Virus record (IMG/VR): IMGVR_UViG_3300025606_000003
Coordinates: 43,036 to 107,035 of that record
DNA: 64,000 nt
From: a virus
Lineage: Duplodnaviria; Caudoviricetes
Strand: one strand, 5' to 3'
Part shown: positions 2,615-55,332 of the stretch, one piece after another
Layout of the letters: every line of letters starts with the position of its first letter
Position numbering within the stretch: the stretch's first letter is position 1
Made by a program: the position numbers and the translations under genes
The notes under the pieces: generated by a model
Told to the model about the DNA's origin: nothing
Database searches by the model: none
The model's input: the letters and a program-made list of their open reading frames with translations, nothing else

Positions 2615-4380
2615 GTAATCACGTACAGTGTGTTGGGGTCTTTCGACGCGATCGCGTCGTAATCGGTCTGAGAGATCGCCATGCAGTTCGTAATCCGGGT
2701 TGCGCCATTGACGCCATCCACGACGCTTGTGATGCCCGCCGAACGCTGGAACGTTTCATCCGTAAACGTCACACCGCCGCCAGATATTGCAGTCGTGTCC
2801 GCGCCGTCAGATACATGAAACGGTGAGTCACAGTAGATCGGATACGTAATATTGCCGCGCCACGACCGCAGCCGACCGCCCTGCCAGTTGAATTCGTATC
2901 CAACAGCGCAAATCAAACTGATACCATTTGCGCCGCCAGTGTCATTACCGAACGACCCCATAACGAGCTGCGTGAAGTTCGGCAGCATCATGCCAATGCC
3001 GCTGATTTGAGCTGTGCCGCCACCCGCGACAACAGCGAACCCGCCGCCGTAGTTGGGCAGAAAATCCGCTCCGTTGCTGCCGCTACCTTCGTTGCCGTTT
3101 GGGGCTGACGCACTTACCGGCACCCAACCCGTTGTAGGAAATACGTACGGGTTGCTGGAAGGATTCGTGAAGTATGTTCGCGGCCAATCCGCGCCGGAGC
3201 AGAGACGCCAATAATTCACTGGCGGGTCTGTCGCGCCATCGTCGTCCGGGTCAGTGCCCCATCCAGTGCGATTACCCGGAGCGAGGAAAAAAGCCACGCC
3301 GTTCAACAACGCGTCGTTTTGTACTAAATAGTAGTTGTGAGTACCGGGTTCAGGCGTGTGCATTCCGTCGTTCGCCCAACCGGTTGGCCGGACGGCAACA
3401 GCGGTTCGCACATAGGTGCCATTCATGTCTGACCACTGAGTTCCGCCGGGGCCGCCCCACGCCGGAACTGGACTGATATAACCCTCGCCAGCATTGGTGA
3501 TGCCGCTTACGACCACTGACGAAGTAAGCGTGACGTTGTTGAATGTCACGTTGTCGTGCGTATTCAGGTCTTGGTCAAACGGGTTGCCCCCACTACCACC
3601 GCCGCCGCTACTGACCTCTACCGCGCTCGTGTCTGCAAGTCCGGCGTACAGTTTGTTTTCTTCTTCGTCGTACAGCATCTCGCCCGGCTGCACGTTGATC
3701 GGCGTCGGGTTTTCGGCGCTGACGATTTCACGGCGGCGGTGCGGGAAGTGCAACGCACGGAAAACGCGCGTACCGGTCTCAACCGGGCCTTCGCTGATTT
3801 GAAGATATGTGAAATAAGATTTCTCGCCGCCTACAACGTCTGTATCAAGGTCGGCGTGGAAACCAATACGGTACGCGCCAGCAGAGAGCCGCTCGTTGGT
3901 AAGCGTAAGCGTGTCGACCGGAGAGCCGGTTGCGCTAGCGCCATCAAACAATTCGTGCGTAATGGTTTCCGCAACCGGGTTATAAGTCACGCGCGCTGTG
4001 TACGTATCGCCAGTGGTAAGTTCATATTGCGAATTAACATTGTTTTCTTCTTGCCCGTTAATTTCTGGGTCGCCGCAATTGTACTGAACTGCAATACGTG
4101 AAGTGTTATCGCCCCAACTCCAGTACGGTTCAACGTCGGCTTTGAAAAAACAAATGCCCTGATCGGGGCAGCCGTCGTCTACGTCAGCGTGCACAAAGGT
4201 GTAAATAATTACGACAGTCGTTTCGCCGTCGATGTCGTAGTTAGTGCGTACCGGGTACGGCGCCAACGACGCGTTGCCCGAGAACCACATGCCGGTGCTA
4301 TCAAACCCAAATAATACGTCCGCGTCGGGGAACGTATCGAGCCAGAACGGCTGTGTGCGCAGATTGCTAGAAACACTCAT
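2611..4380 (-). CDS. Tail fibre / receptor-binding-like protein
   Basis: Beta-rich mosaic sequence, Gly linker, C-terminal SQTDYDAIASKDPNTLYVIT motif common at phage fibre ends. Confidence 0.6.
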   Translation of the reverse strand: MSVSSNLRTQPFWLDTFPDADVLFGFDSTGMWFSGNASLAPYPVRTNYDIDGETTVVIIYTFVHADVDDGCPDQGICFFKADVEPYWSWGDNTSRIAVQYNCGDPEINGQEENNVNSQYELTTGDTYTARVTYNPVAETITHELFDGASATGSPVDTLTLTNERLSAGAYRIGFHADLDTDVVGGEKSYFTYLQISEGPVETGTRVFRALHFPHRRREIVSAENPTPINVQPGEMLYDEEENKLYAGLADTSAVEVSSGGGGSGGNPFDQDLNTHDNVTFNNVTLTSSVVVSGITNAGEGYISPVPAWGGPGGTQWSDMNGTYVRTAVAVRPTGWANDGMHTPEPGTHNYYLVQNDALLNGVAFFLAPGNRTGWGTDPDDDGATDPPVNYWRLCSGADWPRTYFTNPSSNPYVFPTTGWVPVSASAPNGNEGSGSNGADFLPNYGGGFAVVAGGGTAQISGIGMMLPNFTQLVMGSFGNDTGGANGISLICAVGYEFNWQGGRLRSWRGNITYPIYCDSPFHVSDGADTTAISGGGVTFTDETFQRSAGITSVVDGVNGATRITNCMAISQTDYDAIASKDPNTLYVIT

Positions 4381-4404: not shown

Positions 4405-4824
4405 TCAGCGCAGCATCGGCGTCTCAACGGTCACGGTCAGCGCGAAGTCTTTGCTGCCCGTGCCAGACGGTTTGATCCACAGGTAAAGATATCTTTGGGG
4501 ATTCGTCGGCGAGCCGTCACGGTTGATGTACGCCACATTGATATTGCTGTTTTCAGCGATATCTACAACGTCCGGGTCTTCTACAACGTCGGCAAAATCA
4601 GACAAGCTCAACACGTGAAAAGACTCGGCCGGCAAAGACGCGTTGGGCTCTGTTTCCTGGTTGCTGGCATACAGATCGGCCTCGAAACCCGCCTTGGCGC
4701 CGGTGCGCTGCACGAGCTGATAGCCGCGCAGCACGCCACGGTGCGGCATCGAGATCGGGACGATTGTCTCCGCACCGCTCGCCGCCGAAAAAGCCTTCGT
4801 ACCGGACCAGATAGTGCTAGCCAT
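4405..4824 (-). CDS. Hypothetical beta-rich protein (possibly structural)
   Basis: 139 aa ORF in operon context. Confidence 0.65.
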   Translation of the reverse strand: MASTIWSGTKAFSAASGAETIVPISMPHRGVLRGYQLVQRTGAKAGFEADLYASNQETEPNASLPAESFHVLSLSDFADVVEDPDVVDIAENSNINVAYINRDGSPTNPQRYLYLWIKPSGTGSKDFALTVTVETPMLR

Positions 4825-4833
4825 TGCTCACCC

Positions 4834-7245
4834 TTAGTTGTTAGCGACACTGGACAGGTCAACGTCGGAACCAGCCTCTTCCGGATACGGCTCGATGGTT
4901 TTCTGCTTGAGAAAGAGGATAACGTCACCGAGCATCTCAAAGGCGTTGCGTAGCGAGTCTTCCAGTTCCGGCATGTCAGACTTGCCGTAACGCTCGGCAA
5001 ACTTGTCGCCGTGCCAGTAAAACATGAACAGAATGCGGCCAATCTTATCGAGACCTTTGGTCAACTCACCCATGTACCGGTCGACCAGCGAGTCGTCGCG
5101 CACGGCGCGCAGCATGCTGCCGATCATCGCCGTATCAAACACTTCTTTCTGCCCGGACTGCGCAGCCTGCAGCACGTTGTTAATGTCATGCTTGTCAAGC
5201 TTGGTGTTGGGGTTGTAGATCTGCCGATCGGTCTTGGCAGCAGACACGCTCGGCACCGGCACGCCAACATCGATGCCCATCTGCGTAGGAATGTCCGCGC
5301 CCATGATGGTCTCGCCACCCATGATCGGGCCTGGGTCGCTCGGCGCGTTGGGCGCGTCGTTGACCATCATCGGGGCGCCGTACGGATCGGCGTACTTCAC
5401 GCGGCACTCAAATTTGCGCTTAGCGGCCGCCGCCTTGAGAATTTCGCGGGCTGCGCCTTCGCGAAGACCGTGCCGACCTACAAGCGAAATAAGCGCCTGC
5501 TTCTCCGACAGTTCTTTTTCAATTAAGCCAATATGTCCTGGCTGGTGCGAGCACATTTCAACTGCCGTACCGTTGTGATACACAGTCAGCGCCGCGGTCT
5601 TCTGCATCAGCGCCAATTGTGCGTCCACGATGTTGCCTGGCATCAGCGGCGGATCTTTGCTCTCACCGCAGCCGCACACACCCTGATCGTCAGCGTCAGC
5701 CTCCGTTTTGTCGTCCTCGCCGGGCGCGCACTTGAGAGCTTTGAAGCTCTCCGGCACGAAGATGTCGCCCATCGAGCTGCGAAGGCTAGAGCCCTTCTTG
5801 CCGCCCAGATGAACGCGCACACCGTCGCGGTACTTGTCGTAGTTCAGTGGATCCGCGTAGCAGCACGCCGAAATATGCCCCTTCGGCGGATACTTGGAGT
5901 AATCTTCAAGATGAACCTCGTAGCTAGTCGTACCGAATTCATCTTCGCCGAGCTCGCGCAGTACGCGCACCGGGCATGTCGCGTCGCCGTTCTTGCCAAT
6001 CAGCATGGTGCGGGTGCGGCCGGTCGGAAGGCTGGTCGCGTCTTTCAGGCCGTTGAACCAGCTGTCAAACTCCTCGCCTTCGACCTGCGCAATGGCGAAA
6101 ACCTGGTCGGCGCGGGTGTTCACCCAATCGGGTGTGCCCTCGGTGCGCACCACGGTGACAAAGTCCGCGCGCTTGGCGGCGCCCATCGGAAACACGGCGA
6201 CATAGCAGCGCTCGATGTTGCCCGGCTTGACCAGAATGTCGTACAGACCAGAACAGGCCGGCGTGAAAAGTTTCTTCTCGACCTGAATCTGGTAGGGAAT
6301 CGAGACGTTGTCGCGATCCCGCTGGTCGAGAATCAGCACGCCGTCGCGCAACAGCTTTTCCTGGTCTTCCTCGCTGTAACCGGCCGGCAGCTTTGTCTGC
6401 AGCGTGACGTCGAGCGTCACAATCTTGAGGCCGGCAACAGACGCCGGCTCTTTGGGCGCCTCCGACAGCACACTGGCAATCTTCAGCTGCGCATCACGGG
6501 CCTTCGCCGCCGCAATCGCTTCCTTGATTACGCCCAGGCCGTGAAAGTTATCAAACGCCCTGGCGAGCGCCGGGGCGTCCTGGAACGTCTTCACGAGCAT
6601 TTCGACCGTGGTCAGGCGGGCTTCCTTGAGAAACTGCGCCAGGTTGAGTTTCTGGCCCAGCTCAGCCAGCGTGGCGCCTGTGTTCAGCGTGGCGCACTTG
6701 GCCAGGGTCGGCATCACGGCCGTCATCATTTCCCGAAGCGTGGGCTTGGCCGAGCCGAACTTGGCCGGGCTGCGCGAAAGCTGTGTAAAGTCGGGCTGCC
6801 GCTGACCGAGCCCGGACAGATTCCGGTCAACGCTCGAGCCGAGAATATTTGGCTTCCGGTTGATCAGGTAATTGATCCAGTTTTCCTTGAGCGGCACGAA
6901 CATGTCCTGGTTTTTGATGTACAGGAGCTCGTGACCTTTGAGGTCGCCGTTCAGGAAGAAAACAGGCGCGTACAGCCAGTTCGAGCCGACCTTGAAGGCA
7001 AAAACACCGACCGCCTTCGTGTTTTCACGGTTCCGGTCCAACAGCTGGAAGCCGACTTCATGATCCAGCAATTTCGGCGCCGAATCGCGGAGATACGCGT
7101 GCGCAAGATTGCTGAAAGCCTGCTCGAACGACGCGGAGTCGCCTTTGCCGCCAAAATCGGCCACCTTTGTCTGGGTCCGGTCGTGCGAACGGACCACAGT
7201 CAGCAGGTTCTTTAAGGACGATTCGGTATTCTTGCGGTTGTACAC
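4834..7245 (-). CDS. Large putative virion/head protein
   Basis: GTG start after GGAGG; about 800 aa; K-x-A motifs (TKVAD, LKIAS, QKTAA, VKYAD). Confidence 0.7.
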   Translation of the reverse strand: MYNRKNTESSLKNLLTVVRSHDRTQTKVADFGGKGDSASFEQAFSNLAHAYLRDSAPKLLDHEVGFQLLDRNRENTKAVGVFAFKVGSNWLYAPVFFLNGDLKGHELLYIKNQDMFVPLKENWINYLINRKPNILGSSVDRNLSGLGQRQPDFTQLSRSPAKFGSAKPTLREMMTAVMPTLAKCATLNTGATLAELGQKLNLAQFLKEARLTTVEMLVKTFQDAPALARAFDNFHGLGVIKEAIAAAKARDAQLKIASVLSEAPKEPASVAGLKIVTLDVTLQTKLPAGYSEEDQEKLLRDGVLILDQRDRDNVSIPYQIQVEKKLFTPACSGLYDILVKPGNIERCYVAVFPMGAAKRADFVTVVRTEGTPDWVNTRADQVFAIAQVEGEEFDSWFNGLKDATSLPTGRTRTMLIGKNGDATCPVRVLRELGEDEFGTTSYEVHLEDYSKYPPKGHISACCYADPLNYDKYRDGVRVHLGGKKGSSLRSSMGDIFVPESFKALKCAPGEDDKTEADADDQGVCGCGESKDPPLMPGNIVDAQLALMQKTAALTVYHNGTAVEMCSHQPGHIGLIEKELSEKQALISLVGRHGLREGAAREILKAAAAKRKFECRVKYADPYGAPMMVNDAPNAPSDPGPIMGGETIMGADIPTQMGIDVGVPVPSVSAAKTDRQIYNPNTKLDKHDINNVLQAAQSGQKEVFDTAMIGSMLRAVRDDSLVDRYMGELTKGLDKIGRILFMFYWHGDKFAERYGKSDMPELEDSLRNAFEMLGDVILFLKQKTIEPYPEEAGSDVDLSSVANN

Positions 7246-7332
7246 AGCCACCTCCGTGCGGCGTAGCGACAAATGACACTGATAACTCAACAATTTACCG
7301 TGTCTAAGCTCTTACATCCTACCGAAATGCGA

Positions 7333-9207
7333 TTATGGGCGCCATCCGCTTGTGGCGCCCGTTACGCCAAACTGTTCGCCGCGAGCCAGCGCCGGCACAA
7401 AACTGCTGCCAGATGTGTCGCTAACTCCGCCGTGGTGTACGCTGTCGAGCAGGCCCTTTTGCTGGTAAGACCCGAGCATCCGCGTCATCCAGTCCTGGTC
7501 GTTTGAAATGTTACTCATGCCGCGAACCATTTCCGGCTGAAACGGCGGCGGCGTCCGGTGCGCTTCGATGTTATTGATTCCGTACTTCTGCAACGTATCG
7601 GTCACATTTTTGCCGATTTTTGTTCCAACAGAATAGTGCAGCACTGGGCGCTCTAAGTAATGCCCCGCCAGACTTTTTGGCGCGCCGGTCACGCTACCCG
7701 GCCGCGGCTGCCAATTTCGTTCAACCATCGAATACGGCACGATATCGTCGGGGTTGTAATCACCGTACTCGTCGGTCATTCGCACGTGGTTTACAAGCCC
7801 GCGCGCCAGCAGCTCGATATTGCGCCGCTGCGGCGTAATTCCTGAGTTCTGCATAACCTGCCGCATAGCTGACACAAAATAGCGGCGCCCTTCGCCAACG
7901 CCCTTGTGCCGCACTATTTCGGCCGGACTGGGCATACCGTCTGACAGCACGTCGCCGGCTTCCAGCGAATCGCCTTTCTTCACGATGACTTGCCGGTCGG
8001 CCGGCACGTAATGGTCTTGGCTGTTGACCTGCACGTAAAACCCGCCCTGGGGCGCTGGTCGGATTTCTTGTACGTGCCCGTCAAACTGCGCATGTGTCGC
8101 GCCGTCCGGATATGTTTTCGGTACCTGCACAAGCGCATTGATCGCCTTAAAACCGGCGATTGAACCGGCGCCGCCGACGCCGCCGGAGTGCTTAGAGCTA
8201 ATCTGCGCCTGCGTCACGGGCTCACCTAACGCCTGCGCGGCCGCGATACCAACGTAATCGCCGACAGGTGGTAATTTTCCTTTTTCCCGATAACCAACGT
8301 CACGCGCAAATACGCCGCCATCATCCGGGCCGCCCACCGTCGGACTGCGCACGAGAATATCTTTCATGCCCATTTCTTTGATGTCGCGAAGAATCTTCGG
8401 CGTCAGCATCGTGTTGCGCTTGTACGGGCCGACCGGGCGCGCTAGCAGCGCGCCCTCGTTGTCAGAGTCGTCGACATCGGTCGGAAAGCCTCGGTCAACA
8501 GCGCCAGCTGCGCGCTCTTCGTCGTCATCGTCATCAGATGTAACTAGCAGCCGGTGCGTCATCTGTGAAAGCTGCTTGCTGAAAAACCCAGCGTCGGCGG
8601 TCGCTGTTTTTAGATCCATGACACCTTTACGCGTGCCGAAGGCGCCGGCGAAATATTCAACGGGCCGGAGCCCCTGACCGTAGCCGTGCAGCACCGGAAT
8701 CGGAATCGGGTCGTTCTTGTGGTCGACATACTGCATGTCGGCCCCAATCAGCGAATTCAGGCTGAACTTGTTGCCCTTGCCAACGCCGATGACCTGGTGC
8801 GCCAACGGGTTATCAAAACCTTTTGCTTCGTCGTAAACTTCGTTGACGAGCGAGCGCTGCGTGTCGCCGGCCAGCTTTAAAATTTTCAGTGTGCGCGCTT
8901 TTTCATCCAAGCTGCTGTCTGACAGAATTCCGCGCAGCTGCTGGTTAACTCTGTGTCGCGCGTTCTGGACCGCCACGGTGGCTTTGATATCTTTGAGACC
9001 GAACGACAAGCCGTTGGTGGTATAGCTGGCTTCGCGCCCCACGTCGTGCAACCGCTTCATCACGTCGCGGTATTTCTCGGGATATTTTTCAGCCAGCGTT
9101 GTCGCGAGCTGGGCCATATCTTTTTTTGTCAGCACGCGCTCGTAGTTGCGTAAGTCTTCTGGCAACGCGGCGTTAATGAGTACTTGGCCGAGCGTAGTTT
9201 TCAGCAT
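7333..9207 (-). CDS. rpoC: Phage RNA polymerase beta'-like subunit, C-terminal half
   Basis: Bridge helix TRKGVMDLKTATADAGFFSKQL; trigger loop VGIAAAQALGEPVTQAQISSKHSGG; RRNIELLARGL (cf. DKHIEVIVRQM). Confidence 0.9.
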   Translation of the reverse strand: MLKTTLGQVLINAALPEDLRNYERVLTKKDMAQLATTLAEKYPEKYRDVMKRLHDVGREASYTTNGLSFGLKDIKATVAVQNARHRVNQQLRGILSDSSLDEKARTLKILKLAGDTQRSLVNEVYDEAKGFDNPLAHQVIGVGKGNKFSLNSLIGADMQYVDHKNDPIPIPVLHGYGQGLRPVEYFAGAFGTRKGVMDLKTATADAGFFSKQLSQMTHRLLVTSDDDDDEERAAGAVDRGFPTDVDDSDNEGALLARPVGPYKRNTMLTPKILRDIKEMGMKDILVRSPTVGGPDDGGVFARDVGYREKGKLPPVGDYVGIAAAQALGEPVTQAQISSKHSGGVGGAGSIAGFKAINALVQVPKTYPDGATHAQFDGHVQEIRPAPQGGFYVQVNSQDHYVPADRQVIVKKGDSLEAGDVLSDGMPSPAEIVRHKGVGEGRRYFVSAMRQVMQNSGITPQRRNIELLARGLVNHVRMTDEYGDYNPDDIVPYSMVERNWQPRPGSVTGAPKSLAGHYLERPVLHYSVGTKIGKNVTDTLQKYGINNIEAHRTPPPFQPEMVRGMSNISNDQDWMTRMLGSYQQKGLLDSVHHGGVSDTSGSSFVPALARGEQFGVTGATSGWRP

Positions 9208-9208
9208 G

Positions 9209-9448
9209 TTACGGCGTCCAAATCAGATTTTGCATCGGCTTTGGCTGTACTTCTGTAACTGCTACGGTTTTGTTGACGCCCGCGGCCCGCAACAGCGCAT
9301 GAAAGTCTTTTTCTCGGGCGTCGGCATACACGATCGATTCGTCAAGCTGCAGCGCTACAAAAATAGGGTTGCCCAGCGCGTCCTCGATGACGACGCTGTG
9401 CGCTGACTGTTCATGCGGCTGTAGGTTGTGCTGCAGTTTAACGCGCAC
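9209..9448 (-). CDS. Small hypothetical protein
   Basis: 79 aa ORF between the RNAP genes, overlaps upstream stop, AGGAG upstream. Confidence 0.6.
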   Translation of the reverse strand: MRVKLQHNLQPHEQSAHSVVIEDALGNPIFVALQLDESIVYADAREKDFHALLRAAGVNKTVAVTEVQPKPMQNLIWTP

Positions 9449-10121
9449 GCCCCAAGCTCCTGCGCAAAACAGACAACGCCGCAGCCTTCAACTGCAGCTC
9501 AGACGGCGCATCAGGATCGGGCAGCTCGGCGGTAACTTGCTCCCACCACGCCTGCTTGCCAGCGTTCGGGTCCATTGGCATTTGACTCGGATCCTGGGGG
9601 CCACCCGGCGGCATTGGGCCGCCCGGCGGCTGCGGACCGCCAGCGGCATTCGGGTCTTGTGGGGGCGGCGGCGCCATAGGGCCACCAGGCAGCGCCGACT
9701 CGGCCGGCGGTGCGCCGTTAGAGCCTGGCGGCAGCACTAACGTAGCAGGGTCTACCTGCACGCCCATCGCGTTCATGATCGCCGTGAGTTGCTGTTGCAT
9801 GTTATACAGCCGGAAATCGATCATCTGCATCATTTGCTCGGGCTTCATCTTCTGCCCTTGCGCGGCGCCGGGCGGCGCAGCGGGCGCCGGAGCCGGCATC
9901 GGAGCGGGAGCCGGCGGCATCGCAGCAGCGCCGGCGCCGGTCGGATCTTGAGCAGCTGGCGGCGGTGCGGCACCCATAGCAGCTTGCGCCGGATCGACCG
10001 GCGGCGCAGCGCCCATTTGGGATGGATCCGGCTGCATGCCCATCATCGCAGCTTCAGACGGCACCACAGCCGACTTTTCGAACGTGGCGCGGGCCATCTT
10101 CATCAATTCACGATTGACCAT
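9438..10121 (-). CDS. Pro/Ala/Met/Gln-rich low-complexity protein
   Basis: GGAGG RBS; FEKSAV motif near the N-terminus; Pro-rich tracts flank a short helix. Confidence 0.7.
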   Translation of the reverse strand: MVNRELMKMARATFEKSAVVPSEAAMMGMQPDPSQMGAAPPVDPAQAAMGAAPPPAAQDPTGAGAAAMPPAPAPMPAPAPAAPPGAAQGQKMKPEQMMQMIDFRLYNMQQQLTAIMNAMGVQVDPATLVLPPGSNGAPPAESALPGGPMAPPPPQDPNAAGGPQPPGGPMPPGGPQDPSQMPMDPNAGKQAWWEQVTAELPDPDAPSELQLKAAALSVLRRSLGRAR

Positions 10122-10139
10122 GGACGTAAACCTCCGTGT

Positions 10140-13100
10140 TTAACTTTCGACGATGTGCACCGGGGAGTCGACGTCAAGTTCGCCCCGGCGGTAAGCGTTA
10201 ATTGCGTCCTGCGTGCTGCGATATACCCTGGGCTTAGCTTTTTTATCGATGCGGCTCGAGGCAAGATACACACCGGTCTGATAGTCCGCGTTCGGCACGT
10301 AATGCGCCTTGAAGTTGGATGTTGCAAAAAGGTTTTTGCTGGGAAGCATCTTTTCGACTGCTTCTTTTGCAGCGTCTTCTGTGCTGGGAACGTGATATTG
10401 CATCGCGTCTCCGTCAAAGTCGGCACCAAAACCTTTTGTAATGACCGGATTAACCTCCATGACCTTGTTTTTTGTAAGCTTTGGATAGAACGCCATCATA
10501 CCGTATCGGTGCAGAACCGGCGCACGGTTGATAACGATAGGCCGAGACGACATCTGGGTCTCCAGCTCTGCCATCGCCTGTTTATTGCGGTCTTCGACAG
10601 CCTGCAGCGCCTGCATGCGCGGTAACCCGCGGCGCACTAGCCCGCGCACAACAAACGGCTTGTAAACGGCCCAGGCCTTGTCTTCGGGCAGCGCGACCTC
10701 GTCCATGTTCAGGTCTGGGTTCGGCGTGATCACCGCCCGGCCCACAAGGTCAACCGTGGTGCTGAGCAACTTACGCTGCACGGTGCCGTATTTGGGCGAA
10801 GAGCCAAAAATATGGGACAAGAAGCCTTTCACGCGGCGTTCCTGGTTTTTTGGCTGCGTCGGATCGCCGAGCCCGGTCACGGCTTTCATAGTGTCGTACA
10901 GCGCCAGCCGTTCGTCGCCATAGCTTTCAAGCGCACCAGATGCCTCTTTCAAAGTGCTGTTGGCGTCCAGCAGTTCTTTGTAGAGATAGTTCGCATCGGC
11001 AACCAGGGGCAGTTTTTTATTACCCATTGTGCTGACCGGCCGGAAGAGCGGCGGCAGGACGGGCATTTTTGTCAGCATCCAATCTTTGGGATGCACGCCG
11101 GTCTGCTCTGCGTTCTTCAAGTATCCCAACTTGCGCACCGCAGCGTCGCGCAGGGTCTTCCGGCCGGACTTGATATCTTCGCGCACCTGCTCGAGCATTT
11201 TTGGCAGGTTAATCCGAGATAGCGCGTTTTGAATCGCTTTGGGCCCAGTCTCGTCGTGGATCTTGGCTTCGCCTGCGAGCACGTTCCGGTACTCTTTTTC
11301 AGTCAGCCCAAGCACGCGACGAATAGGCTCTTCCATGACCGGATTCGGCATCGGTTCGTGCAAAGATATCTTTGCCCACCGGTTGCCGCCGTGGCCGCCC
11401 GTAAGTTTTTCGTCGAAGAGGCCGCCAGCAATCGGCTTCAATCGGCCCTTCCAGTCGACGGTTTCAGAATTCTCGATTTCGCGACCGCCCGCCATGTCAT
11501 CGACGTCTTTGTCGGTCAACGCCATGATGTGCGTCTGGCTGCCAGTGCGCACGGTGTTAATACCGGCGCCCTTCAGCTGGTTAACGAACTTTTCGTAGAC
11601 GTGTGGCACCTTGGGCAACGGCGGAGTGTATCCGGCCATAAATTGCGACCAGTACTCTGGGTTTGCTTGGCCGCGCACCATCTTGGCGTCCCGGATTACT
11701 TTTCCAGCGCCGTGCGACAGTAACGCGCCAAGATCCAACATTCCGACGCGTTTAGCACCTTCGCTGCCGCCCTTGGCCGGAGTGCCTTCGGCTGTGTAAC
11801 TACCCATCGCGCGGCCTTGCCCTTTGCCTTCGGCCGTGTGGTGCAGCTTCATAAAGAACCGGGAACCGGTCAGCACGCCTTTGATCTTACGACCGGTTTC
11901 CGGATCAACTACGTCCTCGGTATCAGAGAGGCCGTGCTTCCCAAGCTCTTTTTGAGCGAAATCAACAAGATCAACACTGCCGTCAAAGTCTTTGAGTTTG
12001 AACGGCTGACCCGTTTTGGCTGCAACTTTTCCAAGCGCGGCCTCGATCACCTGCGCGGGATTCACGCGGCTGATAAGTCCAAGCGGGCTGACCAGCACTT
12101 CATACGGACTGCCGTCTTTATCGTGCGGCATCTGATGGTCAGGCACAATATCGGCAACAACGCCTTTGTCGCCGTATCGCCCGGTCAGCTTATCGCCAAC
12201 CTGCATTTCCGCCTGTGTTTTTACGACGACCTGCACACCCTTGTTGGTATGCGCAACGTCGGTCACGATACCGGGCGAATGATGATCCCAGGTTTCCGAC
12301 TCGTTTGAGAAGTTGCCGGCACGCCCGCGGTGCACTTTGCCGTACGTTGTTTCTTTGGCCTTGGCGTGCAGGATTAGCGGATCACCGAACTGCACAACGG
12401 CGCCCTTCTTGATCGCGCCTTTGTCGTCAAAGTTATCAAGCTGCTTTTTGTCGTACTCGCCGGGAAACAACGCAATAAATGCTTTCTTGCCAGCGTGGCT
12501 CGAGTCTGTCCATTCGGCGGCATGCTGATACATGTGCTCGCTGGTCAGCTTGCGCGCTGTGCTTTGACTGATCACAACCGCGTCTTCGTAGTTCTTGCCG
12601 TGATACGGCAAATACGCCACGCGCAAATTTTTACCCAGCGCTGCAGAACCGGCCGGATCTGTAAAGTTTGAGTGCGCCAGCAGCTGCCCCGGTTGAATAA
12701 CGTCGCCAGGCTGCACCGTCGGTGTTTGATGCCAAAACGTTTTCCGATTGAACGGGTGCTCGTTATACAGATCAATATCGTGTTTGTTGCCGTCGCGATC
12801 GCGCAGCACCATTTTGCCAGGTTCAGTTGAAACAACTTGCCCGTGAAATTGCGCGCGTACAGCGCCCAGCTGCTCGCCCATTTCATCTTCGTGCGACGTG
12901 CCGTCTTTGCCGATAATAGCTGACTGCACGTGTGGCGCTTCAGGTCCAACCAGCGGCAGCGCTTGCGTGAACATGCGGCTCGCCATGATCACGCGGTGGC
13001 CCTTCATGTAAGACTTCATCGGCACCATGTTAGACAGCGCCGAAAACGTGTTGTCCATGTGCGGCAGGCTGTACTGTACTTGCTCGCGCGGCATGTACTT

Positions 13101-15548
13101 CATCTTGCCGTTGACCATCGCGGCAATCATGGGCAGCGTGCTTTTTTCTTCGCCCGGAAACGCCAGCGGCAATTCAGCCAGCTCGCCGGGTGTTTTGTAC
13201 GTTGTCTCGCCTGTGCGCGTGTCAATTACGGGTGTGTAGATTTTGCCATCAGCGCCTTTGCGCGCGCCACGAGCAAAGCGCATGTCGACACCGACTTTTC
13301 CGCTGTTGCCGCACCAAAAACCGCAGCCGCCTTTTCGGCGCACGTAAAGCAGGCCGCCGGGCACGGTCGCGCAATACACCAGGCCGTCGTACTGTTGCCG
13401 GAAATAATGGCATTCGCCCTTGGGCGTATTCGGCAGCACTTGATGGCTAGTCTGTTTGTGTACGTGCACGACCCAGCAGCCGCCGACCGCTGCGTGAGGG
13501 CGCTTGTCGCGCTCGAACACGACTTTGCATGAATAACCCAGCCCAAAAGCCAGCCGCTCAAAATCAAGCGCGAGCTGGTGGCTGGCAGTGCAAAAACAAG
13601 TTCTTTCGCCGCGCTTGTTCTTGCGCCCTTCACTTTTCATCAGCGCGTCAAACAACCGAAAGCGGGCAGAAACCGGCGCATCCAAGAACTCTTCTGGGAT
13701 CCAGCGGCCCGGGCTGCCGTGGAATTGCTTGAAATACGCCGCAACTTGTTTTGTCGCGATCGAAAACGCCTTGCCGTGATAACCCCACTTAAACGGCAAG
13801 CGGCTCAACAACGCGCGGATTTGGTCGCAGTTTTCCGGATTGTGCTTTTGGCACTGCGTGATCTTAATCTGAAATTGCGACTTCTCCGGGCGATACACGC
13901 AGCTGCCCTCGCCCAAATACCAGCCGAGCAGTTCTGCCCAATCGTCCAACAAAACGTTGCCGACGACAACCCGGTTATTGCTCTCGTAAACCGGCGCCGG
14001 AATGCTAAACACGGCGGCAGAAACGCCGCTGTACGGGTCAAAACCGGCAGAAAGAACACCGCGAAACTTCAAGTGTGTCGTTTCGGCGGATTCGATTTTG
14101 TACGGCGCGCCTTCGTAAAGCGAGCGCACATACATCCGGTGATTCGGCGTCACAAGATAGTTAATCTTGCCGGTAGCAGCGCCGTACATTTCGCCGACGT
14201 AGCGCGATTCGTGCAACTTTTCTGCCTTGTGGAACTCGAGCTGCCCGGCGACCAGGCAGGCAAACTCGTCTCGCTCGGTGACGTCTGGCCACTTTTTCCA
14301 GCCACCGCGCGTCATAACCTCGGTTTGACTGTCGTAGCACTCGGGCGTGCGCAAGAAATCCACAAAACCAAGATGACTCGGCTGTACGCTGCGCGATTCT
14401 TGCGGCACGGCGTCAAGCGACCCGATGCCGCCTTCGCCCATGCGGGTCACGCGGGATTGATGATCGAAAATCTCGGCCGGATTGATTTCTTCAAGCGAGC
14501 TGCCCAACCCAGAGCCAATCAACGCAGCGCTGATGCCCTTGTTGAACACGCCAGTCGGAAGCCGATCAAGATTTTTCTTGGCGGTTGCTTTCCAGAGAAT
14601 CTGCCGCAACGTCTGCCGATCTTTTGTAAACCGCTCGGCGATCAAATCTTCCGGACCCACAACAGATTGGTACGCCATGGCGTCGCGATCGTCCGGGTCG
14701 GCTTCTTTGCGATTGAGCGCGATGAGCTTCTTAGTGATCGCCAGAATTGCGTCCGGCGTAAGATTTTTGTATTCAGCGCCGAGCGTGCGCCGCGTGACAT
14801 CTGGATCCATTTCCATGCGCGCAAATTCGTCGGCGATGGCTTTTTGTTTGCCGGCCGCGTCAATGCCCGGCACTGGTTTGTACACAAGTCGCTGGTACAG
14901 TTTGTCTAACGTGCCCGCGTCGCCTTTCTGCATATTGACGGCTGTAATGTCGTTGCCCCACGCAGCACGAATATCCTGATCGTGCGCGCCCATGGCTTTC
15001 AACAATGGCAACAGCGGAATTTTGGCCTGCCCAATATTGATGTTGAGCACGCCGGTTTTTGGATCCAAAAAGTAACGGTGCATGCGTCCTTTGCCAGGAA
15101 GCACATTGACGTGGGCTTCCAGCTCGCCGTTATCTTTTTCACGGGTGTAGACGCCGGGCTTCAGCCGCATCTGGTGTGCCAGCGTGTATTCAACACCGCG
15201 GTTCACAAACGTGCCAGAATCCGTGAGATACGGCACATGCGCCAGTGTTGTTTGCCGGCGGGCGATTGGCTGGCCCGTCACATTGTCGGTAAGCGACCAC
15301 GTGCCGGTCATACGCCGGTGCATAGAGTTACCGGTCAAAATAGCCGTCTTTTGATCAGCCTTGGTAAAACGCTCCGGCCCCGTGTACTTCACATCATGAA
15401 GCTGGAGCGTATAGAGATCGTTTTTAACCGGCTCAAGCGACGACGCACTGCGGAGCGCGCTGTCAAAGATGTTGTTACGCAGCGAACTGATGTCGCCAAA
15501 CGCGCGCATTTGCGGCGCCGGAGAACCTGGAAGCATCGAGTCTGGCAT
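10140..15548 (-). CDS. Phage RNA polymerase beta / beta'-N fusion subunit, intein-containing
   Basis: Beta motifs (SRVTRMGEGG, GKNLRVAY..NYEDAVVIS, GDKLTGRYGDKGVV, MKLHH) run into beta' motifs (GGLFDEKLTG, VLPPLFRP, GRAVITP, NRAPVLHR, catalytic GADFDGD). Confidence 0.92.
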   Translation of the reverse strand: MPDSMLPGSPAPQMRAFGDISSLRNNIFDSALRSASSLEPVKNDLYTLQLHDVKYTGPERFTKADQKTAILTGNSMHRRMTGTWSLTDNVTGQPIARRQTTLAHVPYLTDSGTFVNRGVEYTLAHQMRLKPGVYTREKDNGELEAHVNVLPGKGRMHRYFLDPKTGVLNINIGQAKIPLLPLLKAMGAHDQDIRAAWGNDITAVNMQKGDAGTLDKLYQRLVYKPVPGIDAAGKQKAIADEFARMEMDPDVTRRTLGAEYKNLTPDAILAITKKLIALNRKEADPDDRDAMAYQSVVGPEDLIAERFTKDRQTLRQILWKATAKKNLDRLPTGVFNKGISAALIGSGLGSSLEEINPAEIFDHQSRVTRMGEGGIGSLDAVPQESRSVQPSHLGFVDFLRTPECYDSQTEVMTRGGWKKWPDVTERDEFACLVAGQLEFHKAEKLHESRYVGEMYGAATGKINYLVTPNHRMYVRSLYEGAPYKIESAETTHLKFRGVLSAGFDPYSGVSAAVFSIPAPVYESNNRVVVGNVLLDDWAELLGWYLGEGSCVYRPEKSQFQIKITQCQKHNPENCDQIRALLSRLPFKWGYHGKAFSIATKQVAAYFKQFHGSPGRWIPEEFLDAPVSARFRLFDALMKSEGRKNKRGERTCFCTASHQLALDFERLAFGLGYSCKVVFERDKRPHAAVGGCWVVHVHKQTSHQVLPNTPKGECHYFRQQYDGLVYCATVPGGLLYVRRKGGCGFWCGNSGKVGVDMRFARGARKGADGKIYTPVIDTRTGETTYKTPGELAELPLAFPGEEKSTLPMIAAMVNGKMKYMPREQVQYSLPHMDNTFSALSNMVPMKSYMKGHRVIMASRMFTQALPLVGPEAPHVQSAIIGKDGTSHEDEMGEQLGAVRAQFHGQVVSTEPGKMVLRDRDGNKHDIDLYNEHPFNRKTFWHQTPTVQPGDVIQPGQLLAHSNFTDPAGSAALGKNLRVAYLPYHGKNYEDAVVISQSTARKLTSEHMYQHAAEWTDSSHAGKKAFIALFPGEYDKKQLDNFDDKGAIKKGAVVQFGDPLILHAKAKETTYGKVHRGRAGNFSNESETWDHHSPGIVTDVAHTNKGVQVVVKTQAEMQVGDKLTGRYGDKGVVADIVPDHQMPHDKDGSPYEVLVSPLGLISRVNPAQVIEAALGKVAAKTGQPFKLKDFDGSVDLVDFAQKELGKHGLSDTEDVVDPETGRKIKGVLTGSRFFMKLHHTAEGKGQGRAMGSYTAEGTPAKGGSEGAKRVGMLDLGALLSHGAGKVIRDAKMVRGQANPEYWSQFMAGYTPPLPKVPHVYEKFVNQLKGAGINTVRTGSQTHIMALTDKDVDDMAGGREIENSETVDWKGRLKPIAGGLFDEKLTGGHGGNRWAKISLHEPMPNPVMEEPIRRVLGLTEKEYRNVLAGEAKIHDETGPKAIQNALSRINLPKMLEQVREDIKSGRKTLRDAAVRKLGYLKNAEQTGVHPKDWMLTKMPVLPPLFRPVSTMGNKKLPLVADANYLYKELLDANSTLKEASGALESYGDERLALYDTMKAVTGLGDPTQPKNQERRVKGFLSHIFGSSPKYGTVQRKLLSTTVDLVGRAVITPNPDLNMDEVALPEDKAWAVYKPFVVRGLVRRGLPRMQALQAVEDRNKQAMAELETQMSSRPIVINRAPVLHRYGMMAFYPKLTKNKVMEVNPVITKGFGADFDGDAMQYHVPSTEDAAKEAVEKMLPSKNLFATSNFKAHYVPNADYQTGVYLASSRIDKKAKPRVYRSTQDAINAYRRGELDVDSPVHIVES
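13305..14339 (-). mobile_element. Intein (345 aa) with LAGLIDADG-type homing endonuclease
   Basis: RTPE|CYDSQTEVMT start; block B VTPNHRM; LLGWYLGEG and LFDALMKSEG; block F VYCATVPGG; ends WCGN|S; removal restores RTPE-SGKVG. Confidence 0.88.
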
Positions 15549-15553
15549 GTCGA

Positions 15554-16387
15554 TTACTCATGTGTCGGCTGCGTGGCCATCTGCTTAATCTGCGCCAGCT
15601 GATCGGGATCAACGTACACGTCAGGCAATCCGCGCATCCGCGCTCGGCTAGCCCGCGCCTTCGCAACGTTTTCGCCGCGCGTGCGCTCTGCTGTGCGATC
15701 GTACATGTACTTTCCGCCAACACCGGCAGCGGCAAGAGACGCCAGTACTTGCGTCGTCGCGACGCCGTGCGGCACGGTGTTGGTCAAAAAGTTCCACGGC
15801 ACGCTGAGCACGTCTGTAATGCTCGGCGCGGCCCACTTTTCATATACGGCGTCAAGCGCGGCCGCAGACTTGTCTTGTCCGCTGAGAATGGCGTAATAGC
15901 GCTGGCGTTCTTTTTCAACCTCATCCTTGGCTTCTTGCTTGTCTTTGTGCTTCACAATGGAATTGACCAGCGCCCCACCACCTAAAACGCCGCCGCCCAA
16001 AGCGCCAAAATTCATCGCCGTACCGAAAGCGTCCCGATACAGGTTGGGCATATACGAGCCAAGTTCGTCGCCCGACCGCAACCCAACCGGGCTAAAGATC
16101 GTGTCGGAAATACGCCCCGGAACAGAGCCAATCAAACTGGCGATATTGTTGTAAACGTTTTCAGTAGTTGAGCTAGCCGTCTTGACGTCTGGGGCCGCAA
16201 GCGTGGGTGCACCCGGGGCAAAATCCTGATAGCTAGTTTCTTTCTTGTTGGCCGGCTTCAACGCTCGAATAAGCTGCCACAGCGCCATACCGCCGACGCC
16301 GACACCAGCGCCGGTCGCCAGGTTTGTCAAAACCTGTTTGCCTAATGCGGCCTCGTCAAACGCAGCTGTTTTGTTTGCTGTAGTCAT
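15554..16387 (-). CDS. Putative internal virion protein with three Gly-zipper hydrophobic segments
   Basis: K-x-A motifs (NKTAA, VKTAS, DKSAA, EKWAA) precede Gly-rich hydrophobic helices. Confidence 0.65.
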   Translation of the reverse strand: MTTANKTAAFDEAALGKQVLTNLATGAGVGVGGMALWQLIRALKPANKKETSYQDFAPGAPTLAAPDVKTASSTTENVYNNIASLIGSVPGRISDTIFSPVGLRSGDELGSYMPNLYRDAFGTAMNFGALGGGVLGGGALVNSIVKHKDKQEAKDEVEKERQRYYAILSGQDKSAAALDAVYEKWAAPSITDVLSVPWNFLTNTVPHGVATTQVLASLAAAGVGGKYMYDRTAERTRGENVAKARASRARMRGLPDVYVDPDQLAQIKQMATQPTHE

Positions 16388-16392
16388 AGTTG

Positions 16393-16740
16393 TCACTTTG
16401 GCGGCAGCATTCCGTACACCTGAAACCATTCCAGCCAGGCGCGGTAATGTTTTTTTTCTTCATCCCAGTTGTCATTACGACGCACAAGCCTGTACCAGCC
16501 ATTGACTATTTTATCATTCACGTCGTCAAACTCGGCTTTTTGGGCGTCGTCCCAAAGCTCAAACATTTTTGACTTAAAGTCCAGCCGAAGATCGAGATTA
16601 TCAAGCTCGGCCTGCTTGAGATCGGGCTGGGGGCCCGGGCGTTTCAGCACAGGGAAGCCGTCTGGCGTACCGGGCCAATTCAACTGCGCGCCGCCGTGCG
16701 CCGGGCCGCCTAATTCACCGTAGTACTTGTGCATGCTCAT
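16393..16740 (-). CDS. Hypothetical protein
   Basis: 115 aa ORF in operon. Confidence 0.7.
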   Translation of the reverse strand: MSMHKYYGELGGPAHGGAQLNWPGTPDGFPVLKRPGPQPDLKQAELDNLDLRLDFKSKMFELWDDAQKAEFDDVNDKIVNGWYRLVRRNDNWDEEKKHYRAWLEWFQVYGMLPPK

Positions 16741-16750
16741 AATTTACGCC

Positions 16751-17125
16751 TTACATGGCAGATCGGTACTGCTTCGACTTCCTGTGCGCTTGCAGCCGGT
16801 CGGCGTAAACGCGGTACGTGTGCGCCAGCTCTTGAGCTTTCACCTGATCTTCGTCAATTTTTGGCTCGAGCATCTTTGCCGCACCCCAACCCCCCGCGGC
16901 GCCGGCAGTTAAACCTCCAGCGACGGGCAACCAGTACAGCGCGTTCATTGCGGACGGCGCAAATTTACTGGTAGTACTCATCGCAGCCCGTAGTGTTGCC
17001 AACGCCGTAAGCGGATTGACAGCGACTTTTTCAAGCCGGGCTGTTAACTGGTCGCCTGTAAGGCGCTCTTCCGCACACCGAGTCAAAAAACCTAACTTGA
17101 AAGCTTCTTTAGCGGCGTCAGACAT
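16751..17125 (-). CDS. Putative virion protein with Gly-zipper
   Basis: AFKLGFL...LEKVA leader, then AGGLTAGAAGGWGAA. Confidence 0.65.
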   Translation of the reverse strand: MSDAAKEAFKLGFLTRCAEERLTGDQLTARLEKVAVNPLTALATLRAAMSTTSKFAPSAMNALYWLPVAGGLTAGAAGGWGAAKMLEPKIDEDQVKAQELAHTYRVYADRLQAHRKSKQYRSAM

Positions 17126-45975: not shown

Positions 45976-46041
45976 ACGGGCATCCTTGCCGAGAGCCAAT
46001 AGATATCTTTGCGCGCAGCTCAGCGCGCAAGAGCTCTGTTA

Positions 46042-49603: not shown

Positions 49604-49637
49604 TTAGATATCCCGGTTAGATATCAATTAGATATCA
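49604..49637. repeat. Triple TTAGATATC cluster
   Basis: GATATC at 49607, 49620 and 49631, each preceded by TTA, essentially intergenic. Confidence 0.9.
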
Positions 49638-55189: not shown

Positions 55190-55236
55190 GAGTTCACCTC
55201 TACTTAGAGTTAGATATCAATTCAACAAAGAACAAA

Positions 55237-55309
55237 AGCCGGTGGCCGGGAACGATCCGGCGACACGCTGATTACAAATCAGCTGCTCTACCAGCTGAGC
55301 TACACCGGC
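55237..55309 (-). tRNA. tRNA-Thr(UGU)
   Basis: Cloverleaf GCCGGTG/CACCGGC, loop TT-TGT-AA; atypical T-loop ATCGTTC; no encoded CCA. Confidence 0.85.
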
Positions 55310-55332
55310 CTGACCGACCTGCGCGGCGCAGC

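What the first reader, a model, noticed from the sequence alone, without database searches (positions are those of the whole stretch)
7333..15548. Unusual two-chain RNA polymerase: beta fused to beta'-N, beta'-C separate, Zn-binding domain deleted
Seen: the beta C-terminus (EKFVNQLKGAGIN) runs directly into the beta' N-terminus (ETVDWKGRLKPIAGGLFDEKLTG). The Cys4 Zn-binding domain that normally follows is replaced by GHGGNRW. The catalytic loop is GADFDGD rather than NADFDGD. Bridge helix and trigger loop lie on a separate 624-aa chain. Known: phiKZ-like RNAPs are split into 4-5 chains, Helicobacter and Wolbachia have full beta-beta' fusions, and cyanobacteria split beta'. Inference: a compact polymerase of about 2080 aa after splicing with both catalytic barrels on one chain, possibly virion-packaged given its neighbours. 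No alpha or sigma gene is recognisable in this window.
Basis: partly seen in the sequence, partly recalled or inferred. Interest (0 to 1): 0.7.

Follow-up and report, generated by a model that had tools for sequence, protein, structure and literature searches.

The report
Two-chain zinc-free phage RNA polymerase
An uncultured phage of about 200 kb encodes its only RNA polymerase as two oddly cut chains (all of beta joined to the front of beta-prime, the back of beta-prime separate) that have no zinc site and, once an intein splices out, no cysteine; a very large phage family shares this layout, including cultured Salmonella and Vibrio phages, and I found no paper that describes it.

Summary
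One 1802-aa ORF (10140-15548, minus strand) carries a complete minimal beta, a linker of about 6 residues, and beta' up to about E. coli residue 550. A 624-aa ORF (7333-9207) carries the rest, with bridge helix and trigger loop. A 345-aa LAGLIDADG-type intein interrupts beta at TPE|S. The spliced chains total 2081 aa.

The beta' zinc ribbon is replaced by GGHGGNRW. The second zinc site is gone as well. All 13 cysteines lie in the intein.

The fusion is not an artefact. It recurs in 35 viral contigs, in more than 120 protein clusters at 90% identity, and in all 150 best representatives at 50% identity. It is also present in Salmonella phage Arash and Vibrio phage D69.

Five complete relatives each have one polymerase, one sigma-like gene and no alpha. 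This genome's sigma homologue lies about 26 kb outside the window. Virion packaging is inferred from Arash mass spectrometry, not shown for this phage.

GADFDGD is polymorphic in the family (G, N or A), so it matters little.

No searched paper describes the layout. The scan had already found the same architecture on other genomes. I class it as a new variant of a known kind.

The parts
10140..15548 (-). Gene for the beta::beta'-N fusion with an intein (1802 aa precursor, 1457 aa after splicing)
   Evidence: ORF and translation; Pfam Rpb2_6 and Rpb1_2 in one chain; profile map to E. coli beta and beta'
14340..15548 (-). N-extein: beta residues 1-403, ending in the conserved ..LRTPE motif
   Evidence: Alignment with 14 intein-free orthologues
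13305..14339 (-). Intein, residues 404-748 (345 aa): Cys1, TPNH block B, two LAGLIDADG-like motifs, terminal Asn, Ser+1. It holds all 13 cysteines of the precursor.
   Evidence: Exact in-frame insertion relative to orthologues; residues invariant in 9 intein-bearing homologues; weak LAGLIDADG_3 hit; Foldseek top hits are PI-SceI, VMA inteins and PI-PfuI, on a low-confidence model
11550..13304 (-). C-extein, beta part (residues 749-1333). It includes the beta double-psi barrel with GDKLTGRYGDKGV (1118-1130, nt 12159-12197) and the natural beta C-terminus ..GINTV.
11532..11549 (-). Linker RTGSQT joining the beta C-terminus to the beta' N-terminus
   Evidence: Profile alignment to E. coli beta 1337 and beta' 28; family alignment
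10143..11531 (-). beta'-N part (residues 1340-1802): clamp helices and the catalytic barrel. It ends at about E. coli beta' 550.
11376..11399 (-). GGHGGNRW (residues 1384-1391), standing where bacterial beta' has its four-Cys zinc ribbon
   Evidence: Vibrio phage Va2's unsplit beta' keeps the ribbon.
10407..10427 (-). Catalytic loop GADFDGD (residues 1708-1714)
9438..10121 (-). 227-aa Pro/Ala/Gln-rich, Cys-free protein with a conserved core (..KPEQMMQM..YNMQQQLTAIMNAMG..). Role unknown. GGAGG lies 9 nt before its ATG.
   Evidence: Conserved at this position in relatives.
9209..9448 (-). 79-aa Cys-free protein. Its stop codon lies 1 nt before the ATG of beta'-C. Modelled as five strands plus a helix. 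Role unknown.
7333..9207 (-). beta'-C chain (624 aa, no Cys): bridge helix about residues 187-222 (nt 8542-8649), trigger loop about 323-346 (nt 8170-8241). The ZnII cysteines are replaced by DDDD and GGPDDGGVFARDVGY. There is no SI3 insert.
4834..7293 (-). Context: an 819-aa protein whose N-terminal part matches Arash gp218, a protein found in the Arash virion proteome
   Evidence: tblastn; Arash table

Best explanation
This is the phage's own and only bacterial-type RNA polymerase, built from two chains instead of the bacterial alpha2-beta-beta'-omega.

Chain 1, after its intein splices out, is a minimal beta tied by about 6 residues to the first 40% of beta'. It therefore carries both catalytic double-psi barrels, the clamp helices and the Mg-binding DFDGD loop. 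Chain 2 supplies the secondary-channel rim, bridge helix, trigger loop and the C-terminal clamp part.

The covalent beta-beta' tie probably does the job that the alpha dimer and omega do in bacteria, which is to bring the two large subunits together (inferred). Promoters are probably read with the phage's own sigma-70-family protein (inferred).

The enzyme has lost both beta' zinc sites and every cysteine. By analogy with phage Arash it is probably packed into the virion and delivered with the DNA to transcribe early genes (inferred).
For: Shown here:
- One ORF holds Rpb2_6 and Rpb1_2. The profile maps to E. coli beta 89-1337 and beta' 160-549. The second chain maps to beta' 572-945 and 1148-1286, with the bridge helix and the trigger-loop His kept.
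- Catalytic residues are conserved across the family: GDK..GR.GDKG and ADFDGD are invariant.
- The layout recurs in 35 IMG/VR loci with the same gene order, in more than 120 clusters at 90% identity, and in the 150 best representatives at 50% identity, all of which span the junction.
- Five relatives that are 97-100% complete each have one Rpb1_2 ORF, one Sigma70_r3 ORF and no alpha.
- This contig has a sigma homologue.
- The four genes are tightly packed.
- The mature 2081 aa have 0 Cys where about 30 are expected from the contig's 1.44% background.

From a paper: in Arash, Gp206 (the fused chain) is the most-detected protein in purified particles (3516 spectra). Gp216 (1210 spectra), sigma Gp10 and helicase Gp217 are also present (PMC10585845).

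Established knowledge: the beta C-terminus and the beta' N-terminus are neighbours, and natural fusions work in Helicobacteraceae and Wolbachia (PMC7483510, citing Zakharova 1999 and Lane & Darst 2010).
Against: - There is no biochemistry for any member of the family.
- Virion packaging rests on a homologue at 25-33% identity. The Arash authors themselves allow that abundant enzymes may co-purify with particles.
- The sigma could serve the host polymerase instead.
- A very divergent alpha- or omega-like partner could escape Pfam. The conserved 79-aa and 227-aa neighbours have no assigned role.
- The trigger loop lacks the usual Arg (..QISSKH..), and Asn before ADFDGD is Gly, so kinetics may differ from the bacterial enzyme.
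- Intein splicing was not shown. The intein model has a mean pLDDT of only 50.
Confidence: 0.78

Rival explanations
1. The two phage chains are only a catalytic core that borrows host subunits (alpha dimer, omega or host sigma) to assemble or to start transcription. It would then not be a self-sufficient two-chain enzyme.
For: No alpha or omega is encoded. The beta and beta' parts are close enough to bacterial enzymes to match them at E 1e-62 and 1e-49, so bacterial docking surfaces could survive.
Against: Jumbo-phage multisubunit polymerases work without alpha and omega and do not stably bind the host subunits (PMC7598289; PMC13282480). The phage carries its own sigma-like gene. Host subunits could not join an enzyme stored in the virion.
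Confidence: 0.15
2. The polymerase works only inside the infected cell (middle or late genes) and is not a virion enzyme in this clade. The Arash signal would then be carry-over of an abundant protein.
For: The Arash authors raise this possibility. That study called 116 proteins 'structural', many of them enzymes, which suggests a permissive list. No virion data exist for this clade.
Against: Gp206 is the single most-detected protein, above the capsid protein. The genes sit inside the structural module, next to a gp218-like protein and within 13 kb of the capsid gene. The polymerase, the sigma and the SNF2 helicase share a complete lack of cysteine against a 1.44% background, which fits a common fate. 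As the only polymerase, it would leave early genes to the host enzyme.
Confidence: 0.2
3. The fused ORF is a polyprotein. A phage protease cuts it at the linker, so the working enzyme has separate beta and beta'-N chains, as in phiKZ-like phages.
For: Head proteins of large phages are often processed (general knowledge). The linker is the least conserved stretch near the junction.
Against: The linker is only about 6 residues between ends that already touch in bacterial enzymes, so cutting is not needed. The fusion is kept in every one of the 150 best representatives, with no unfused form seen. Arash Gp206 was reported as one protein with 100% coverage, though this does not exclude a cut.
Confidence: 0.07
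4. The fusion is an assembly or frameshift artefact, or the gene is decaying.
For: None found.
Against: The identical protein occurs on 6 contigs. The same continuous ORF is in 35 loci, in more than 120 clusters, and in two isolate lineages sequenced independently. Catalytic motifs are invariant.
Confidence: 0.01

Closest known systems
Salmonella phage Arash gp206 (1525 aa) + gp216 (606 aa), with sigma gp10 (OQ632216; PMC10585845); also Vibrio phages D69, D148 and D181
   Same: The beta::beta'-N fusion and separate beta'-C are the same (33% and 25% identity). The loss of the beta' zinc ribbon is the same. Both have a sigma homologue. Both chains and the sigma were detected in Arash particles.
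   Different: Arash and D69 keep all four ZnII cysteines and a few other Cys, whereas the window's clade has none. Their catalytic loop reads AADYDGD. In Arash the two genes lie 5 kb apart. The records call the proteins 'beta' or 'hypothetical', and the paper does not mention the fusion.
phiKZ / AR9-type multisubunit polymerases of jumbo phages (PMC7598289)
   Same: They are phage-encoded, have no alpha or omega, have beta' split after the catalytic barrel, and include a virion-packaged form.
   Different: They have 4-5 chains with beta also split, two paralogous enzymes per phage, and no sigma-70 homologue (a gp68 or gp226 factor instead). They are far more divergent from bacterial enzymes. 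Here beta is whole and fused, and there is one enzyme with a sigma-like gene.
Natural rpoB-rpoC fusions of Helicobacteraceae and Wolbachia (Zakharova 1999; Lane & Darst 2010, as cited in PMC7483510)
   Same: The beta C-terminus is joined covalently to the beta' N-terminus.
   Different: There the whole beta' is in the fused chain. Alpha, omega and (from general knowledge) both zinc sites are kept, and they are cellular enzymes. Here beta' is cut again after about 460 residues.
Cyanobacterial and plastid gamma/beta' split (rpoC1/rpoC2)
   Same: beta' is split downstream of the catalytic barrel.
   Different: The cut here lies about 65 residues earlier. The last aligned residue of the fused chain corresponds to gamma residue 558 of 626. 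Beta is not fused in cyanobacteria.
Phage polymerases with separate, unsplit beta and beta' (PHROG 24349 and 25354; Vibrio phage Va2; probably the mReC clade of PMC7481178)
   Same: These are bacterial-type beta and beta' in tailed phages. They give the best PHROG matches to the window's chains.
   Different: Va2's beta' is one 1192-aa chain with an intact four-Cys zinc ribbon, NADFDGD and 17 Cys. The mReC screen required two proteins of at least 800 aa and an NADxDGD motif, which most members of this family would fail.
crAss-like, YonO and P23-45 single-chain two-barrel polymerases (PMC10770324; bioRxiv 10.1101/2020.03.07.982082)
   Same: Both barrels are on one chain, and some are virion-packaged.
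   Different: Those are extremely divergent and lack recognisable beta and beta' modules. The present enzyme matches bacterial beta and beta' along nearly its whole length.

Membership tests
Bacterial-type multisubunit RNA polymerase (beta/beta' core) | beta double-psi barrel with the two conserved lysines (GDK..GR.GNKG) | tested here: met
   GDKLTGRYGDKGV at 1118-1130, invariant in 15 sequences; Rpb2_6 at E 3.6e-50
Bacterial-type multisubunit RNA polymerase (beta/beta' core) | beta' barrel with the DFDGD Mg-binding loop | tested here: met
   GADFDGD at 1708-1714, with the three Asp invariant; Rpb1_2 at E 6.1e-24
Bacterial-type multisubunit RNA polymerase (beta/beta' core) | Bridge helix and trigger loop | tested here: met
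   The 624-aa chain aligns to E. coli beta' 572-945 and 1148-1286. The trigger-loop His is kept and the Arg is replaced by Ser.
Bacterial-type multisubunit RNA polymerase (beta/beta' core) | beta' N-terminal four-Cys zinc ribbon (E. coli C70, C72, C85, C88) | tested here: not met
   Replaced by GGHGGNRW with no Cys
Bacterial-type multisubunit RNA polymerase (beta/beta' core) | Second beta' zinc site (E. coli C814, C888, C895, C898) | tested here: not met
   Replaced by DDDD and GGPDDGGVFARDVGY. Arash and D69 keep the four Cys.
Bacterial-type multisubunit RNA polymerase (beta/beta' core) | Alpha dimer as the assembly platform (omega was not searched for) | tested here: not met
   No match to PF01000 or PF01193 at E<=1 in the own contig, and none to PF01000 in five complete relatives; the controls ring in 14 of 14. 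A very divergent analogue is not excluded.
Sigma-70-dependent holoenzyme | A sigma-70-family factor encoded with the polymerase | tested here: met
   The ORF at G000:C1:16480-17328 (outside the window) scores 27.7 bits on Sigma70_r3 (cut-off 25.3) and gives a weak r4 hit. It matches Arash gp10 at E 8e-15. There is one such ORF in each of 5 complete relatives. Binding to this polymerase was not tested.
Helicobacter/Wolbachia-type beta-beta' fusion | Whole beta and whole beta' in one chain | tested here: not met
   The fused chain stops at about E. coli beta' 550. No protein with beta'-C joined to beta::beta'-N appeared among the longer homologues.
Cyanobacterial-type beta' split | Cut at the gamma/beta' boundary | tested here: not met
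   The cut lies about 65 residues upstream of the gamma C-terminus.
phiKZ/AR9-type phage polymerase | beta split into two or three chains, with two paralogous enzymes per genome | tested here: not met
   beta is continuous. There is a single Rpb1_2 ORF per complete genome.
Class 1 intein with homing endonuclease | Cys/Ser at position 1, TxxH block B, terminal Asn, Cys/Ser/Thr at +1 | tested here: met
   C404, TPNH at intein residues 64-67, N748 and S749. The penultimate residue is Gly, not His.
Class 1 intein with homing endonuclease | Hint fold plus LAGLIDADG endonuclease domain | tested here: inconclusive
   There are two LAGLIDADG-like motifs (..LGWYLGEGS....FDALMKSEGR..). The Pfam LAGLIDADG_3 hit is at E 0.038, below the cut-off. 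The model has a mean pLDDT of 50, yet its best Foldseek rows are PI-SceI, VMA inteins, PI-PfuI and I-DmoI (prob 0.8-1.0, TM 0.2-0.3).
Virion-packaged (injected) phage RNA polymerase | Protein present in purified particles | not testable with these tools
   Only the Arash homologues were measured (PMC10585845).

The most novel reading that the evidence does not exclude
The layout may be an adaptation to being shot through the tail. The polymerase would be stripped to two chains that need no alpha, no omega, no zinc and no thiols. It could then be stored in the oxidising, metal-poor virion, pass unfolded through the tail with its sigma and an SNF2 helicase, and refold by itself in the host. In that reading the covalent beta-beta' tie replaces assisted assembly. 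If so, this would be the smallest natural sigma-dependent cellular-type polymerase, and the first known without structural zinc.
Probability: 0.3. Interest if true: 0.8.

Novelty: new variant of a known kind. Interest (0 to 1): 0.62.

Why it matters
Textbook bacterial polymerase assembly goes alpha2, then alpha2-beta, then alpha2-beta-beta', helped by omega and two zinc sites. Here nature appears to have dispensed with all of these, yet kept a nearly full-length match to beta and beta' and a sigma-70-type factor.

This makes it a ready model for three questions: what the alpha platform, omega and the zinc sites are really needed for; how a sigma works without the beta' zinc ribbon; and how a 230-kDa enzyme is packaged and delivered.

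Cultured members exist (Arash on Salmonella Typhimurium, Vibrio phages D69, D148 and D181), so the questions can be tested at the bench.

The family is very large in freshwater and other metagenomes. Its genes are routinely annotated as 'beta subunit' or assigned to bacteria, which can mislead rpoB-based surveys.

Tried and rejected
1. Complex prediction of beta'-C with the 79-aa neighbour gave no verdict (score 0.00, controls not run). It says nothing either way.

2. The 79-aa protein gave a fair model (pLDDT 80.6; five strands and a helix). No solved fold matched it. Foldseek rows were all above E 1, with a few weak Sso7d-like rows at prob 0.23 or less. VIA-align reached Z 2.4 at best. It is not helical like omega. 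Its role stays open.

3. The 227-aa and 79-aa proteins have no Pfam or PHROG family. I found no clear counterpart in D69 or Arash.

4. The intein gave no PDB sequence match, and its structure model was poor.

5. PHROG and Pfam scans of about 20 neighbouring ORFs were almost blank. They found only an SNF2 helicase, PhoH, a glycosyltransferase and a tail-tip domain.

6. A Sigma70_r2 search of the contig found nothing. The sigma surfaced only through tblastn with Arash gp10 and the r3 model.

7. The promoter and terminator scan of 4500-17000 gave no more than chance.

8. Literature: seven searches and nine papers gave no description of a beta::beta'-N fusion with a separate beta'-C. The mReC paper's filters would exclude most members.

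9. I did not build a phylogeny, because I had no handy set of bacterial and phiKZ-type sequences. Origin and dating therefore stay open.

10. I rejected the idea that something is missing between the two chains. The fused chain ends at about beta' 549-555 and the next chain starts at about 572.

11. I rejected the idea that inserts at the zinc-ribbon site in relatives are retained ribbons. They are canonical inteins (C...SN|S).
Full report
**What is in the window**

Four tightly packed minus-strand genes occupy 7333-15548.
- The first ORF, 10140-15548, is 1802 aa with no stop.
- Its TAA is followed by GGAGG, and 9 nt later by the ATG of a 227-aa gene.
- That gene overlaps the start of a 79-aa gene.
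- The TAA of the 79-aa gene lies one base before the ATG of a 624-aa gene at 7333-9207.
- The contig is an IMG/VR virus record of 107 kb, judged 52% complete. The window is its bases 43036-107035.

**The fusion**

Pfam places Rpb2_6 (912-1252, E 3.6e-50) and Rpb1_2 (1661-1732, E 6.1e-24) in the same chain, and Rpb1_5 in the 624-aa chain. Against solved structures the long chain matches beta chains (for example 7l7b_C, residues 807-1358 to 640-1210, E 4.6e-62) and also beta' chains (8i23_D, residues 1407-1798 to 165-561, E 2.3e-49).

I built a profile from 15 family members and aligned E. coli RpoB and RpoC to it.
- beta 89-1337 of 1342 covers nodes 72-990.
- beta' 28-63 aligns weakly to nodes 1006-1042.
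- beta' 160-549 aligns to nodes 1073-1456 of 1461, at 224 bits.

So beta runs to its natural end (..GINTV). Six residues follow (RTGSQT), and beta' begins near its residue 18.

E. coli beta 935-1048 and much of 223-419 have no counterpart, so this is a minimal beta. After splicing the two chains total 2081 aa, against 2749 for E. coli beta plus beta'.

**The split**

A profile of the 624-aa family aligns to E. coli beta' 572-945 and 1148-1286. It therefore carries the bridge helix and both halves of the trigger loop, without the SI3 insert. Nothing substantial is missing between the chains: one ends at about 549-555 and the other starts at about 572.

The cut is near the cyanobacterial one but not at it. 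The last aligned residue of the fused chain corresponds to gamma residue 558 of 626 (8gzg_D), which is about 65 residues earlier.

**The zinc sites and cysteines**

E. coli beta' has ZnI at C70, C72, C85 and C88, and ZnII at C814, C888, C895 and C898.

In the window the ZnI ribbon is replaced by GGHGGNRW. This replacement is conserved through the family and also in Arash and D69. ZnII is replaced by an Asp run (..TSDDDDDEE..) and by ..SPTVGGPDDGGVFARDVGY...

Arash gp216 and D69_0264 still have exactly four Cys, at the ZnII positions. Vibrio phage Va2 has an unsplit 1192-aa beta' and keeps the ZnI ribbon, NADFDGD and 17 Cys. The likely order is therefore:
1. Fusion, split and ribbon loss, shared by the whole fused lineage.
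2. Loss of ZnII and of all cysteines, in the window's clade.

All 13 Cys of the 1802-aa precursor lie between residues 404 and 746. The exteins, the 624-aa chain and the two small proteins have none. The contig's other ORFs hold 1.44% Cys, so about 30 would be expected in 2081 aa. The Poisson probability of zero is about 1e-13.

**The intein**

Relative to 14 orthologues the window has an exact in-frame insertion of 345 aa between ..LRTPE and SGKVG... It has these features:
- It starts with Cys.
- It has TPNH as block B.
- It has two LAGLIDADG-like motifs.
- It ends in Asn and is followed by Ser.

These residues are invariant in nine intein-bearing homologues of 1801-1860 aa.

Sequence libraries barely see it: LAGLIDADG_3 at E 0.038 and no PDB sequence match. 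The structure model is poor, with a mean pLDDT of 50. Even so, its best Foldseek rows are all intein endonucleases (PI-SceI, Tli and Pho VMA inteins, PI-PfuI) or I-DmoI. I accept it as an intein on the junction evidence. Splicing itself is untested.

**The catalytic loop**

GADFDGD is confirmed. The first position varies: among 114 insert-free relatives it is G in 92, N in 19 and A in 3. In Arash and D69 the motif reads AADYDGD. It is a polymorphism, not a hallmark.

**Is it real and how common**

- The identical protein was recorded on 6 contigs.
- A scan of viral contigs returned 35 loci at 71-85% identity. Where the contig extends far enough, each shows an ORF of 1456-1486 aa, then a Pro/Ala-rich gene of about 235 aa, a gene of about 80 aa, a beta'-C gene of about 626 aa and a gene of about 800 aa. 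Several of the contigs are about 200 kb.
- All 120 listed clusters at 90% identity carry both Pfam domains.
- In a full HMMER pass with the 653 residues around the junction, all 150 listed representatives at 50% identity span the junction. They are 46-62% identical to the query. Apart from a few contig-end fragments, they are 1442-3350 aa long.
- Among proteins longer than beta'-C, none joins it to the fused chain.

**Cultured relatives and the virion question**

Salmonella phage Arash gp206 (1525 aa) and Vibrio phage D69 0261 (1527 aa) cover residues 25-1799 and 6-1800 of the query at 31-33% identity. Both have separate beta'-C genes.

The Arash paper reports Gp206 as the most-detected protein of purified particles (3516 spectra), with Gp216 (1210), sigma Gp10 (467) and helicase Gp217 (1148). 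It calls Gp206 simply 'subunit beta' and notes that abundant enzymes might co-purify (PMC10585845).

In this contig the polymerase genes sit in the structural module. The next gene downstream matches Arash gp218, and the capsid gene lies about 13 kb away. The sigma homologue, the SNF2 helicase (window 41617-45999, the Arash gp217 homologue) and several large neighbours are also Cys-free. Virion packaging is thus a reasonable inference, not a result.

**Partners**

No alpha was found in the contig (PF01000, PF01193) or in five relatives that are 97-100% complete (PF01000). Each of those five has one Rpb1_2 ORF and one Sigma70_r3 ORF.

This contig's sigma homologue lies at C1:16480-17328, outside the window. 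It scores 27.7 bits on Sigma70_r3, gives a weak r4 hit, and matches Arash gp10 at E 8e-15. The beta' clamp-helix region, where sigma region 2 docks in bacteria, is retained in the alignment to beta' 260-309.

The 79-aa and 227-aa proteins are conserved at this position within the clade, but they have no family and no solved fold match.

**Literature**

The library held no description of this partition. I checked the jumbo-phage polymerase review (PMC7598289), the Iyer et al. comparative study (PMC7824862), the mReC paper (PMC7481178; its filters demand two proteins of at least 800 aa and NADxDGD), a 2026 jumbo-phage review (PMC13282480) and the Arash paper.

The scan's own notebook shows that the same architecture had already been reported on other genomes. 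I re-tested those points here rather than relying on them.

**Verdict**

It is a new variant of a known kind: a phage-encoded bacterial-type polymerase with a unique subunit partition, no zinc sites and, in this clade, no cysteine. It is common in nature, present in cultured phages, and undescribed as such.

Noticed in passing
relatives P0099, P0124-P0272: The fused gene is an intein hot spot. 198 inserts of at least 100 aa fall at about a dozen recurrent sites in conserved motifs: TPE|S as in the window, after DFDGD, and near residues 935, 1120, 1165, 1240, 1270, 1388 and 1585. Precursors reach 3350 aa. Inserts at the lost zinc-ribbon site are canonical inteins (C...SN|S).
   Followed up: partly
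relatives P0166, P0189, P0186 and others; L045:23-5263: Inserts inside the catalytic loop have odd junctions (..DFDGN|C....(W/Y/F)D|TM..). Canonical splicing would leave Asn in place of the third catalytic Asp, whereas insert-free orthologues read DFDGD(A/T)M. P0166 lies in the normal synteny, so it is the orthologue. This is unexplained.
   Followed up: partly
relatives P0273-P0392: In a sister clade (about 50% identity) the beta'-C chain carries a C-terminal extension of 500-1500 aa. In the 10 I inspected it is Ala/Pro/Gly-rich, low in complexity and almost free of Cys. It resembles none of the five neighbouring window proteins I compared. Its position recalls the C-terminal tail of eukaryotic Rpb1, but that is only a resemblance.
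   Followed up: partly
window 41617-45999, 48047-49576, 49635-51479, 15554-16429; G000:C1:17295-23862: Several other large ORFs have no cysteine at all, against a 1.44% background. They are a 1460-aa SNF2 helicase (the Arash gp217 homologue) and proteins of 509, 614, 291, 1199, 552 and 264 aa. They may be a set of co-packaged or ejected proteins.
   Followed up: partly
L044:3399-8913 (Vibrio phage D181; the same in D148): The fused gene is interrupted after 514 codons by about 950 nt that hold a homing-endonuclease ORF. It resumes as a 1006-aa ORF. D69 is uninterrupted. Whether this is an intron or a true gene split was not decided.
   Followed up: no
L011:13329-16388: One relative has a 1019-aa beta'-C ORF with 8 Cys, probably an intein in the second chain. 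Other long beta'-C homologues carry Hom_end_hint and LAGLIDADG_3 domains at about residue 210 and at about residues 330-360.
   Followed up: partly
window 55236-57389 (minus strand): A cluster of five tRNA genes: Thr-TGT, Lys-TTT, Leu-TAA, Val-TAC and Glu-TTC.
   Followed up: no
window 34208-34924, 60771-61961, 2611-4380: A PhoH-like protein (PHROG 170, E 4e-64), a glycosyltransferase (PHROG 3408, E 3e-55) and a 589-aa protein ending in a phage tail-tip domain (PF24243). Most other large ORFs match no PHROG or Pfam family.
   Followed up: no
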